NCBI RefSeq assembly: GCF_024298765.1
Contig: NZ_CP101210.1
DNA length: 64,000 nucleotides
DNA from: Escherichia coli
GTDB lineage: Bacteria; Pseudomonadota; Gammaproteobacteria; Enterobacterales; Enterobacteriaceae
Strand: one strand, 5' to 3'
In this document: one piece after another, positions 33,001 to 36,000 of the stretch
How the letters are laid out: each line of letters begins with the position of its first letter
How positions within the stretch are numbered: the first letter of the stretch is position 1
Made by a program: the position numbers

Positions 33001-36000
33001 CTTCTCGTTGTGTACTGTGTTCGTTTTATCCTGCAGCGGCGTTGCCGGTGATTTACTGAAAATACCCTGCGGTTTACGGTTAATGGTCAGCGTTACCATC
33101 AGTATTGTTACCTCGTGCTGTCAATGGAAGTGGTACCTCATCCGGTATCTGAAAATGTTTTCCGGTGGATGGCACAGCGAATGTCATGTAAGACATGCTG
33201 TTGCCGGTATTGTTCAGTGCTGTGCGTAGTGAGCGTATTCGTTATCAGACAGAGGGGCAGGGAACAAATGGCGTAAACGGGCATCAAAGAGCCAAAGAAA
33301 CAGTACAGGTCAGGCCGTTATGGTCTGCAAACAGAGTCCTGGCGCCCCCGGGACTGAAAACGAAACAATAACCCGCGCACAGTGCGAGGAGCCCGGGCGT
33401 GAAGCAATCAGCAGGTAATATTAATGGCAAGACCAGCAGGTTCTTTAAACAAACGAACAATATCAGCAAATACGACAACTCCCGGAGAGGTAAAAAGTTG
33501 TTCACTTGAGCACTTCTTAAAAAAATGGAGACGAACAAAAATAGGGCGACATACCTGGAAAGTATCGCTACCAGATGATGATAAAAAGCAGAAATAGTGT
33601 TCCAAGCCTGAAAGGGATGAGAATCAGTATCTGTGTGTATTTATAACATCTTCTTGAAGAGGCTGGAGATTGTTAGTCCATTAGTATAATCGATATTCGT
33701 GTTCCTGCGAATATACAGGCTACACCAGATATATGATTGCTACCGAATTTCATCAGTTTGATGAAATTACGCATCATACTGCGGGTTTTTCTCATTAACA
33801 TTAACGAAAGTGAATGGACTCAGACAAGTAGTGACCGGCGCAATTTCGCTAAGTATCAAATACAAAGATTCTGCGATAGCCTTTCCTTCGGAAAGGAAGT
33901 GACGATTAAGTACCGAAAAATGTGATACACATATTATTTTTATGGTGAATCACCTGATAGGATTTGCCATAAATGAATGAAAAGCTGAGTGTTAATAAAT
34001 GAGTAAGAAGAAAATTCCTTTTGAAAATGAAGAGTTCATTACTTACCGGGCATTACTTCTGAGTATTGACTTTGTTAAAAAACTGGTTATAGAAATGTCT
34101 GATGAAGATTTAAATAAGGTTAAGGAAAACTTTGACATAGCTATTCAGCAACGTAATGAGCGAAAGGAAAATATGAAAGCTATCAAATCACTCATGGATG
34201 AACATGGTATATCTCTGGAAGATTTTTATCGTGAATTTGGCAAAAAATCACAGGCAGGCAGAAAAAGTGTGTCAGGAGGGCATAAATACGAGTATGACGA
34301 TAACGGTAAAAGAATGTGCTGGAATGGGCAAGGACGTCGGCCTAAGGCCATAGCAGAGGCTATAAAAGCCGGAGGTTCTCTTGATGATTTTCTTATATCT
34401 CAGGAAGTATCATCTGGTCCTGATTATGAATAACAGCAATATATATTTTGATCTGTATTAATATCAAGGAATATATAGTAAACACTTCTCTGGAGTTGAT
34501 ATATTATCGGCAGGGAATGAAAATGCCTGACTTCATGCTAATATATGGCAATAAAGATAAATGAGTTATACTGTAGAGTTATGAAATAACGATAGTGATA
34601 AGAGCCAGTCAGCGAGACTGATTGTTTTATCTGTACTGGCAGCAGGCAGTTAACCATGGCTTACTGCTTCAGTTTCTGAATATGTGTTGATGATATTTAT
34701 CTGTTTATAAGGCAAGGCTTGTCTCTGTGAGTTGGTAATCTTTATCCCGGGATAGCTTTTCTCTGTATTTTTAGTATAGCCAGTAATCGATTACTCCAGT
34801 ATGCGCAAAAATATAGCAACTCATCCATGGTAAACATGTCAGCTTTTACCTACATATAGATAAATTCATATTTCTCGATATACGACCCAATTTTATTAAC
34901 ACGAGCTGTTACCCATACACCTGTCATCCCCTGCTTATGGTGACTGCGCAGGAACTCTTTATTTGTACAAAGTTGTATCCATCTGGAAGTGTTTTGATCT
35001 TTCAACCAGAGTCCCGCTTCACAATGTCCATATTTTCCTCTTGATGGTCCCGGAAAAACAACATCATATTCAGATTCATAGCTAATAACCTTATCCGGAA
35101 AAAGATAAATACAGACATCGTAATAGTTCAGACTCAGTATAAATCCAAGACAAAATCCCCCCGTGAATGCATTTAATAAATACTTTAATGTTCTGTTAAA
35201 GGTGCGGATATAAAATGCATAAATAAAAGAAAGAGCCCCGGTGATTATACCGGTGCAAAATATGTTGTCCATTCAGGTACCGTATTTTGTAAAACAGTAT
35301 AATGAGATATAGCGGATGCCCATAACATATACCAGCACAAACCACCTGTAATAAGATATGTTATTGCTGTGGAAAACCATTCCCTGTATTTATTTTCAGG
35401 GTAATTGTTCTTGCCCATCAACGTATTTCCAGAATATTTAAAATAACCTGTCACCGAAACGGAATAAAGGCGCAATAACCATAACGGGAAAATATGCGCC
35501 TCTGGTAATCGACAGTGTTACTTCAGACGGTGAGTTTCCCATTCCTTGACTGCAAATGTATCCATCATACCTGAAATATAGTCAACCACTGCTCGTTTTT
35601 TGCTGATTTCAAATATACAGGAATCTGGTTGGGGTAAGGTGAATTTAAGTTCAGGAGGCAGAAATTTATAATTCTCTCCTTCATTGTAAAAGTCATATAA
35701 ATCCCTGATTATTTTATTTCCCCTGAACTCATAGGTGAGGATATTACGTTTTCGCATGATGACTTTAAAGAGAAGTTTTTTGAGCCCTTCGGATAACGCA
35801 TTCAGTTTCCCGAATCCTAGCTCCTGAAAACCATTCAGGTTCGTTACTACAGAAATATCTGCAACGAGGCGATTGACAATATTTGAAGTTAACTCCTTGC
35901 GGAATATGATGGCAAATTCTTCTGAGGTTTTCAGTAAGTTAGCCTGAAAAGCGGTGTTTCTCGACTGAGTAACGATTTCCCTGAACTGTTCCCTCGCTCC

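What the first reader, a model, noticed from the sequence alone, without database searches (positions are those of the whole stretch)
33100..33462. Conserved non-coding region upstream of the FinO/ProQ-domain gene: candidate partner sRNA or promoter
About 360 bp upstream of the FinO-like gene are conserved between both module copies even though the second coding sequence is frameshifted. FinO-domain proteins typically act with a dedicated structured RNA (FinO with FinP, RocC with RocR). Conservation here may mark such an RNA or a regulatory region.
Basis: inference. Interest (0 to 1): 0.45.

Follow-up and report, generated by a model that had tools for sequence, protein, structure and literature searches.

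The report
Ordinary intergenic spacer beside FinO-like gene
The 360 bases upstream of this island-borne FinO/ProQ-like gene are alike in the two copies only because the whole 1.4-kb module is a duplicate by descent; nothing shows a partner small RNA, and the stretch is most likely an ordinary, fast-evolving promoter and leader region.

Summary
Window 33100-33459 matches 60217-60603 at 91% identity with one 30-nt indel, and the second FinO-like gene is frameshifted.

The conservation does not indicate function:
- The spacer has diverged as much as the two flanking genes, which are both pseudogenes in copy 2 (0.089 against 0.109 and 0.116 substitutions per site, p = 0.23).
- Against a more distant E. 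coli allele, the FinO-like gene is under purifying selection (84% identity, pN/pS 0.24). The spacer falls to 52-70% identity, about the synonymous rate.
- Across 781 E. coli genomes the stretch is mosaic. It carries a 188-nt deletion, a 30-nt deletion and three different junctions with variable cargo.

No RNA signal was found:
- There is no Rfam match.
- Folding stability is unremarkable (z -0.3 and -0.5).
- There is no covariation support on either strand.
- Promoter-like and terminator-like sites are no more frequent than in shuffled sequence.

The last 39 bases of the finding belong to a plus-strand small ORF that starts at 33424. RefSeq annotates it as hypothetical, but it is Escherichia-only, changes frame between alleles and does not evolve like a protein.

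Best reading: a divergent promoter and leader region at the edge of a conserved island core. Interest is low.

The parts
32620..33099 (-). FinO/ProQ-domain gene, 159 aa, intact in copy 1
   Evidence: ORF list. Pfam PF04352, E 2.4e-24. Best solved-structure matches are the ProQ N-terminal domain 5nb9 (3e-12) and FinO 1dvo (2e-11). PGAP names it 'ProQ/FINO family protein'. pN/pS is 0.24 against the RM13752 allele.
33100..33143 (.). Segment A: 44 nt next to the FinO-like start codon. It contains the Shine-Dalgarno GAGG (33114-33111, minus strand) and is kept in all close variants.
   Evidence: Alignments of the window copies with loci L002-L013. 70% identical to the distant allele L007.
33144..33331 (.). 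Segment B: 188 nt that is dispensable. It is deleted in many E. coli genomes, including VR50, where the FinO-like gene is intact. It is replaced from 33251 onward in genomes with dnd cargo. It contains the inverted repeat 33171-33205 and the 30-nt indel site at 33259/33260.
   Evidence: The hairpin at 33171-33205 is eroded without compensation in copy 2 and absent in L007. The local z-score of -3.8 for 100-nt windows drops to -1.1 for the 144-nt leader.
33332..33423 (.). Segment C: 92 nt between the deletion boundary and the small-ORF start. It contains a plus-strand 8-bp hairpin (33335-33355) and a weak minus-strand terminator-like hairpin (33388-33372).
   Evidence: Only one pair of the 33335-33355 hairpin shows a two-sided change, and the covariation term is positive, meaning no net support. 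Segment C is 53% identical to L007.
33424..33597 (+). Small ORF, 57 aa in this window. It is divergent from the FinO-like gene, and its first 12 codons lie inside the finding. It is probably a decaying or spurious ORF.
   Evidence: RefSeq annotates it as a hypothetical protein. Differences by codon position are 15/11/15 and pN/pS is 0.69. Only 31 protein clusters match, all Escherichia, 41-107 aa long, with alternative reading frames after about residue 33. There is no Pfam or NCBIfam family. One weak match to a PHROG family (phage protein families) of unknown function was found.
59705..60216 (-). Copy 2 of the FinO-like gene, a frameshifted pseudogene
60217..60603 (.). Copy 2 of the upstream stretch. 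It includes the 30 nt that copy 1 lacks, and homology stops at 60603.
32053..32601 (+). YagK/YfjJ-like ORF that converges on the FinO-like gene. It is the left part of the duplicated module.
   Evidence: pS is 0.158 between the two copies.

Best explanation
Window 33100-33462 is the intergenic spacer between the FinO/ProQ-like gene (minus strand) and a decaying plus-strand small ORF. It lies at the outer edge of a conserved E. coli genomic-island core (YagK/YfjJ, hypothetical, AlpA-type HTH, YfjJ-like, FinO-like), where that core meets variable cargo. By position it should carry the promoter and 5' leader of the FinO-like gene; this is inferred, not shown. The similarity between the two copies is inheritance of a whole 1.4-kb module. 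Copy 2 is a decayed remnant, and the spacer drifts at about the neutral rate. It is not a discrete conserved RNA element.
For: 1. Equal decay in the two copies. Substitutions per site are 0.089 in the spacer, 0.109 in the FinO-like gene and 0.116 in the YfjJ-like ORF (Fisher p = 0.23). Both copy-2 genes are pseudogenes.
2. Deeper comparison (locus L002, copy-1 type, against L007). The FinO-like gene is 84% identical with pS 0.39 and pN/pS 0.24. The spacer 33100-33407 is only 52-70% identical, and mismatches are 3.4 times more likely there than in the gene (p = 1e-12).
3. To the right of about 33408, identity is 80-89%. This matches the pS of 0.145 for the next gene, so it fits a recombination breakpoint rather than constraint.
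4. The spacer is mosaic and tolerant of change in 781 of 5426 complete E. coli genomes. It shows a 188-nt deletion (with an intact gene in VR50), a 30-nt deletion between GGGAACAAA repeats, and cargo junctions at 33250, 33459 and about 33566.
5. No RNA signal. There is no Rfam match at E <= 1. Whole-region z-scores are -0.3 and -0.5. RNAalifold covariation terms are positive on both strands. Promoter-like and terminator-like counts are at or below those of shuffled sequence.
6. Homologues outside this island type sit inside primase-SSB-FinO-PerC operons. Their upstream DNA is unrelated.
Against: - No sigma-70 consensus promoter was found inside 33100-33462, so the promoter assignment rests on position only.
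- The spacer's divergence between the two copies (0.089) is lower than the synonymous divergence of the YfjJ-like ORF (0.158, about 2 standard errors apart). Mild constraint cannot be excluded.
- The block 33403-33452 is 98% identical between the copies, and 33408-33522 is 80% identical to L007.
- One hairpin pair (33337/33353) shows a U-A to C-G exchange.
- No transcript data were available.
Confidence: 0.72

Rival explanations
1. A FinP-like cis-antisense or partner sRNA is made from the spacer. One version: a minus-strand RNA starts near 33420-33570, covers the ribosome-binding site and start of the small ORF (33413-33426), and ends at the hairpin 33388-33372 plus its U-rich tail. The FinO-like protein would bind and stabilise it.
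For: The geometry resembles finP/traJ. A terminator-like hairpin with the tail UUAUUGUUUC lies on the minus strand about 35 nt from the small-ORF start, and it is kept in copy 2. A promoter-like site (TTGGAA-16-TATCAT, 33605-33578, minus strand) lies upstream in this cargo type. The protein is a genuine FinO domain. FinO domains recognise terminator hairpins (PMC9674577, PMC7367173; abstracts seen).
Against: The stem is only 5 bp including one G-U pair, and such sites occur at chance frequency (1 found against 1.3 expected). It is not recognisable in L007. The candidate promoter lies outside the conserved stretch and is absent from copy 2 and from L002/L003-type cargo. There is no Rfam FinP match, no stability excess and a positive covariation term. 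The supposed target ORF is itself not conserved as a protein. The FinO-like gene is often a pseudogene in the genomes that keep this segment.
Confidence: 0.07
2. The distal, best-kept part (33408-33522) is a real small protein gene with its ribosome-binding site. Its first ~33 residues would be MARPAGSLNKRTISANTT.PGEVKSFSLE.FLK. The stretch 33332-33423 would then be that gene's promoter and leader rather than something serving the FinO-like gene.
For: PGAP annotates the ORF in many genomes. It has an AGG-type Shine-Dalgarno sequence 8 nt upstream of the ATG. The first ~33 codons are frameshift-free in all 10 alleles examined, and their pN/pS is 0.53. There is a match to phrog_21027 at 5e-10.
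Against: Differences are even across codon positions (15/11/15), and overall pN/pS is 0.69, reaching 1.0 after codon 33. C-termini differ through frameshifts and cargo junctions, giving lengths of 41-107 aa. Only Escherichia sequences match, with 31 clusters among 5.8 billion proteins. There is no Pfam or NCBIfam family and no tblastn match in phages. The pattern was found in none of 100,044 species-representative genomes. In copy 2 the ORF is cut after codon 12.
Confidence: 0.12
3. The stretch is a DNA-level element of the island. It could be an origin or nick site for the Gp2-like YagK/YfjJ proteins, or a preferred recombination site for cargo exchange.
For: Three YagK/YfjJ or inovirus-Gp2-like ORFs lie next to it. 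The stretch contains inverted repeats at 33171-33205 and 33335-33355. Cargo changes begin inside it or just beyond it.
Against: The junctions fall at three different positions (33250, 33459, about 33566) with no shared motif, which argues against a specific site. The inverted repeats are lost in the 188-nt deletion variants and in L007. No iterons or significant repeat families were found. The sequence is not conserved in the deeper comparison.
Confidence: 0.05

Closest known systems
FinO / FinP / traJ fertility-inhibition system of F-like plasmids
   Same: Both have a FinO-domain protein encoded on a mobile element (Pfam PF04352; PDB 1dvo match at 2e-11). A divergent or antisense arrangement near a start codon is geometrically possible here.
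   Different: No FinP-like RNA was found: there is no Rfam match, no strong terminator hairpin and no conserved two-stem-loop structure. There is no traJ-like target, and the adjacent ORF is not conserved as a protein. In F, finO lies far from finP (established knowledge), so adjacency is not expected anyway.
RocC/RocR (Legionella) and FopA or FinO/RepX (Salmonella plasmids): FinO-domain proteins with one dedicated sRNA
   Same: A FinO domain of similar size with basic N- and C-terminal extensions (RocC matches 7rgt/7rgu at ~1.5e-8).
   Different: The partner RNAs of those proteins are structured, terminator-bearing and conserved with the protein (PMC9674577, PMC8136791; abstracts seen). Here the neighbouring DNA is not conserved with the protein.
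Core module of E. coli tRNA-associated genomic islands of the CP4-57/CP4-6 type (AlpA-family HTH plus YagK/YfjJ or 'inovirus Gp2' proteins)
   Same: The same gene set and order recur in many RefSeq E. coli genomes and are followed by variable cargo. A ProQ/FinO-family protein has been listed among pheV/pheU/selC island genes (PMC6174562).
   Different: Nothing differs in kind. This window simply carries one intact and one decayed copy. The FinO-like gene of these islands has not been studied functionally in the literature I could search.
ProQ/FinO genes of phage-satellite (PICI-like) replication modules: DUF4222, primase, (SSB), ProQ/FinO, PerC
   Same: They belong to the same protein family, at 57-68% amino-acid identity.
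   Different: In those modules the gene lies inside a co-directional operon. Their upstream DNA is unrelated to 33100-33600.

Membership tests
FinP-like or FinO-domain partner sRNA | Match to a curated RNA family (FinP RF00107 or any other Rfam family) | tested here: not met
   cmscan of 30000-36000 on both strands with permissive filters gave 0 matches at E <= 1.
FinP-like or FinO-domain partner sRNA | Stable Rho-independent terminator hairpin with a 3' U tail, the FinO-domain recognition element | tested here: inconclusive
   There is one weak site on the minus strand, 33388-33372. It has a 5-bp stem with one G-U pair and the tail TTATTGTTTC. The region has 1 such site against 1.3 expected from shuffles, and 29000-34500 has 4 against 4.6 expected. 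It is kept in copy 2 but not in L007.
FinP-like or FinO-domain partner sRNA | Own promoter giving a discrete short transcript | tested here: not met
   No sigma-70-like site lies inside 33100-33462 on either strand. The nearest ones (33605-33578 and 33711-33683, minus strand) lie in variable cargo. Transcripts themselves cannot be tested with these tools.
FinP-like or FinO-domain partner sRNA | Secondary structure more stable than chance and supported by covariation | tested here: not met
   z-scores are -0.30 (minus strand) and -0.51 (plus strand) for the whole stretch. The 144-nt leader gives z -1.1, -0.3 and -1.6 in copy 1, copy 2 and L007. Covariation terms are +0.92 and +0.66.
FinP-like or FinO-domain partner sRNA | Conserved together with the protein gene across lineages | tested here: not met
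   The gene is 84% identical between L002 and L007, while the spacer is 52-70% identical. Satellite-type homologues have unrelated upstream DNA.
Sigma-70 promoter / 5' leader of the FinO-like gene | Position directly upstream of an intact gene that has no co-directional upstream neighbour | tested here: met
   The gene at 32620-33099 (minus strand) converges on the YfjJ-like ORF. The nearest feature upstream is a divergent ORF at 33424.
Sigma-70 promoter / 5' leader of the FinO-like gene | -35 and -10 hexamers with 16-18 nt spacing | tested here: not met
   Nothing inside the stretch reaches 9 of 12 matches. By eye only 8-of-12 candidates exist, such as TTTAAA-18-ATTAAT around 33450-33421 on the minus strand; this is inference only. 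A transcription start site cannot be mapped with these tools.
Protein-coding small gene (ORF 33424-33597) | Purifying selection at the protein level and a stable reading frame among homologues | tested here: not met
   Differences by codon position are 15/11/15 and pN/pS is 0.69. Frames alternate after about residue 33 and lengths range from 41 to 107 aa.
FinO/ProQ-domain protein (the neighbouring gene) | FinO domain detected above the curated threshold, with similarity to solved FinO-domain structures | tested here: met
   PF04352 scores 85.8 bits against a cut-off of 27. Matches to 5nb9, 1dvo, 3mw6 and 7rgt.

The most novel reading that the evidence does not exclude
The divergent spacer is a FinOP-like switch. 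The long leader of the FinO-like mRNA, or a short minus-strand RNA ending at 33372-33356, would be antisense to the ribosome-binding site and start of the plus-strand transcript that runs out of the island core into the variable, often anti-phage, cargo. The island's own FinO-domain protein would promote that pairing and so gate cargo expression.
Probability: 0.05. Interest if true: 0.6.

Novelty: already known. Interest (0 to 1): 0.13.

Why it matters
If a dedicated RNA partner existed here, it would give the first function for the FinO-domain proteins that are common in E. coli genomic islands and phage satellites, none of which has been studied. The evidence points the other way. The stretch is ordinary intergenic DNA whose similarity between copies is inherited, so it gives no direct lead to that question. 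One practical lesson follows: similarity between two copies of a mobile module in one genome is not evidence of constraint. A better way to find this protein's RNA ligands is CLIP or RIL-seq on an intact allele, not inspection of the DNA next to the gene.

Tried and rejected
- Rfam search of 30000-36000 at E <= 1 found nothing.
- Whole-region folding on both strands showed no excess stability.
- A sliding 100-nt z-score scan flagged 33125-33274 on the minus strand (z -3.8 and -2.8). I rejected this signal. The hairpin 33171-33205 is eroded without compensation in copy 2 and deleted in L007, and the 144-nt leader gives z -1.1 or weaker.
- RNAalifold on 33324-33464, both strands, nine alleles: no net covariation.
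- Promoter and terminator scans: counts at or below those of shuffled sequence.
- Plus-strand ORF 33115-33276 (53 aa) stays open in both copies, and the 30-nt indel is in frame. I rejected it because L007 loses the frame and the 188-nt deletion variants lack it.
- Minus-strand ORF 33284-33538 (84 aa): not conserved in L007 and not annotated. Rejected.
- Small ORF at 33424 as a real protein family: no Pfam, NCBIfam or phage tblastn match, and only Escherichia hits with shifting frames.
- Genome-contig scans found nothing, both with the FinO-like protein alignment and with a degenerate DNA pattern of the small-ORF start. Comparison with other species therefore relied on the look-up of encoding contigs.
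- No match in the phage collection. The few plasmid-collection matches are all E. coli.
- Literature: no paper was found that studies this island FinO-like gene or its upstream region.
- Repeat search for iterons or an origin-like architecture returned only short two-copy matches.

Full report
**What is there**

The window is E. coli chromosome. It is identical to strain 104 (NZ_CP029164) over the query.

The finding lies in a large composite island. Its local gene order is:
- a YagK/YfjJ-domain protein (30086-30652, plus strand);
- a hypothetical protein (30880/30910-31482, plus strand);
- an AlpA-type helix-turn-helix regulator (31551-31787, plus strand);
- a second YagK/YfjJ-like ORF (32053-32601, plus strand);
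- converging on it with an 18-nt gap, a FinO/ProQ-domain gene (32620-33099, minus strand, 159 aa).

The FinO/ProQ assignment is solid. Pfam PF04352 gives E 2.4e-24, and the closest solved structures are the ProQ N-terminal domain 5nb9 and FinO 1dvo.

Beyond the finding the G+C content drops from about 50% to about 36%. The next genes are cargo: an H-NS paralogue (33999-34433) and a truncated dGTPase defence gene.

**Check of the observation**

Self-comparison finds one second copy. Window 32053-33459 matches 59143-60603 at 86% over 1468 columns, and the match stops abruptly at 33459/60603.

Within it, 33100-33459 has 328 matches, 32 mismatches and one 30-nt indel, which is 91.1% identity. The copy-2 FinO-like gene is frameshifted, and so is the YfjJ-like ORF beside it.

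One qualification applies. A plus-strand ORF begins at 33424, so the last 39 bases of the finding are annotated as coding in many RefSeq genomes.

**Is the conservation more than shared descent?**

No.
- Between the two copies, the spacer differs at 0.089 of sites, the FinO-like gene at 0.109 and the YfjJ-like ORF at 0.116. Fisher's test gives p = 0.23. Copy 2 is a remnant in which both genes are dead, so the whole 1.4 kb is drifting together.
- The synonymous divergence of the YfjJ-like ORF (0.158) is somewhat higher than the spacer's. This is about two standard errors, and is what intergenic DNA usually shows.

A deeper comparison is more telling. Strain RIVM_C036569 (locus L002) carries the copy-1 type. 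Strain RM13752 (L007) carries a more distant allele.

| Segment (window coordinates) | Identity, L002 vs L007 | Other measures |
|---|---|---|
| FinO-like gene (32623-33099) | 84% | pS 0.39, pN/pS 0.24: a protein under purifying selection |
| Spacer 33100-33407 | 52-70% | about the synonymous rate |
| Right of about 33408 | 80-89% | next protein gene has pS 0.145 |

Mismatches are 3.4 times more likely in the spacer than in the gene (p = 1e-12). The higher identity to the right equals the synonymous divergence of the next gene. That part therefore seems to have a more recent common ancestor through recombination, rather than being constrained.

**Distribution and mosaic structure**

Some part of the 363 bases is found in 781 of 5426 complete E. 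coli genomes, always on chromosomes. Only 472 genomes carry at least 80% of it. Aligning representatives gives this picture:
- Segment A (33100-33143), next to the start codon, is always kept.
- Segment B (33144-33331) is missing in many genomes. One of these is VR50, where the FinO-like gene is intact.
- In genomes with dnd cargo (55989, AR_0015), homology stops at 33250.
- Copy 2 stops at 33459.
- The window and L005-type cargo depart from L002/L003-type cargo at about 33566.
- The 30 nt absent from copy 1 are present in copy 2 and in L007, and are flanked by GGGAACAAA repeats. Copy 1 has therefore suffered a deletion.

The stretch tolerates large changes, and its right-hand end is a shifting junction with cargo, not a fixed site. 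The FinO-like gene itself is a pseudogene or split in copy 2 and in loci L004, L005, L006 and L010-L013.

**Tests for an RNA element**

- Rfam gives no match at E <= 1 in 30000-36000.
- The whole stretch folds no better than shuffled sequence (z -0.30 on the minus strand, -0.51 on the plus strand).
- A sliding scan flagged 33125-33274 on the minus strand (z -3.8 and -2.8). The signal comes from an imperfect inverted repeat at 33171-33205. That hairpin has five uncompensated changes in copy 2 and is deleted in L007. The 144-nt leader gives z -1.1, -0.3 and -1.6 in the three alleles.
- RNAalifold on nine alleles of 33324-33464 gives positive covariation terms on both strands. Only one pair shows a two-sided change, in a plus-strand 8-bp hairpin at 33335-33355.
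- The only terminator-like site is a 5-bp stem at 33388-33372 on the minus strand.
- Promoter-like and terminator-like counts are at or below those of shuffles.
- No consensus promoter lies inside the stretch.

**The small ORF at 33424**

Its first ~33 codons (MARPAGSLNKRTISANTT.PGEVKSFSLE.FLK) are shared by all alleles. After that the frame differs between alleles, through a slip in an A-run and other indels or cargo junctions, and lengths run from 41 to 107 aa.
- Differences between L002 and L007 are spread evenly over codon positions (15/11/15), and pN/pS is 0.69.
- Homologues are only from Escherichia.
- There is no Pfam or NCBIfam family and no phage match.
- A degenerate pattern of its start occurs in none of 100,044 species-representative genomes.

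I regard it as a decaying or spurious ORF. A short peptide cannot be excluded.

**Beyond this island type**

Homologues of the FinO-like protein at 57-68% identity lie in satellite-like operons with the order DUF4222, primase, (SSB), ProQ/FinO, PerC. These occur in E. coli, Salmonella enterica subsp. salamae and Citrobacter braakii. Their upstream DNA shows no similarity to 33100-33600. The neighbouring non-coding DNA is therefore not inherited with the protein.

**Interpretation**

Shown:
- The stretch is a real duplicate.
- It evolves at about the neutral rate.
- It is mosaic and tolerant of deletions.
- It carries no detectable RNA-family, stability or covariation signal.

Inferred from position: it holds the promoter and leader of the FinO-like gene, and the leader of the small ORF, at the edge of the island core.

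Not testable here: whether any transcript arises from it. A FinP-like antisense RNA over the small-ORF start remains geometrically possible but has only a weak hairpin in its favour. I give it about 7%.

**Comparison with the known**

The protein is a member of the FinO/ProQ family, and the domain test is met. The stretch itself fails the tests that define a FinO-partner sRNA: curated family, promoter, structure support and co-conservation. The terminator test is inconclusive.

The gene module is the familiar AlpA plus YagK/YfjJ core of E. coli tRNA-associated islands. A ProQ/FinO-family protein has been listed among pheV/pheU/selC island genes without study (PMC6174562). Reviews of the family mention islands only in general terms (PMC9977716).

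**Verdict**

This is ordinary intergenic DNA whose similarity is explained by descent. Interest is low (0.13). The kind is already known.

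Noticed in passing
L008 2452-2982; L009 2451-2948; L016 3001-3537; L018 3001-3534: Homologues of the FinO-like protein (57-68% aa identity) sit in phage-satellite-like operons with the order DUF4222, primase (DUF927 or D5), (SSB), ProQ/FinO, PerC. They occur in E. coli, Salmonella salamae and Citrobacter braakii. A 390-485-nt non-coding gap follows the primase gene in L008 and L018, and an RVT_1 reverse-transcriptase gene lies downstream in L016. This context may be the better place to look for this protein family's RNA partner, for example a replication-control RNA.
   Followed up: partly
window 59705-60216; L004, L005, L006 (strain 55989), L010-L013: The island FinO-like gene is frameshifted, split or carries an internal stop in most of the variant loci inspected. 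This suggests weak selection to keep it once the island is resident.
   Followed up: partly
window 33250, 33459, ~33566 and onward to 36279: The island core meets different cargo at different points. Cargo is H-NS paralogue plus dGTPase in this window (the dGTPase is truncated, matching PADLOC profile positions 161-369 of 395), dndBC in 55989 and AR_0015, a large AAA protein in VR50, and a T6SS-adjacent block in RIVM_C036569 and RM13752. It looks like a cargo or defence hotspot with illegitimate rather than site-specific junctions.
   Followed up: partly
window 33259/33260 and 60376-60405 (approx.): A 30-nt indel is flanked by the 9-bp direct repeat GGGAACAAA. The longer form occurs in copy 2 and in the distant allele L007, so copy 1 carries a repeat-mediated deletion.
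   Followed up: yes
window 32082-32098 (+): A terminator-like hairpin (GCCGGGAGACATCCGGC followed by GTTTTGTT) lies about 30 nt inside the annotated YfjJ-like ORF, just after the point (32053) where the copy 1/copy 2 homology begins. It could be an attenuator or terminator downstream of the alpA-like gene, or chance.
   Followed up: no
window 32601-32620: The YfjJ-like ORF and the FinO-like gene converge with only 18 nt between their stop codons and no terminator. If both are expressed, their transcripts should overlap as natural antisense RNAs.
   Followed up: no
window 33100-33113 and 33413-33426: The ribosome-binding regions of the two divergent starts are an imperfect 14-nt inverted repeat (AGGTAACAATACTG and AGGTAATATTAATG in their own sense). 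Both mRNAs would therefore begin with nearly the same translation-initiation sequence. This is probably chance.
   Followed up: no
window 47631-48399 and 49569-50337: An inverted pair of about 770 nt at 65% identity appears in the self-comparison. It lies in the IS-rich part of the island (IS3/IS30/IS66 remnants in the RefSeq annotation).
   Followed up: no
window 1-64000: ARAGORN finds no tRNA or tmRNA gene in the whole window, although the region is a composite island next to yicL/nlpA. The island includes a CP4-type antirestriction and CbtA/CbeA block, ireA, hlyE, the fec operon and pgtABCP.
   Followed up: no
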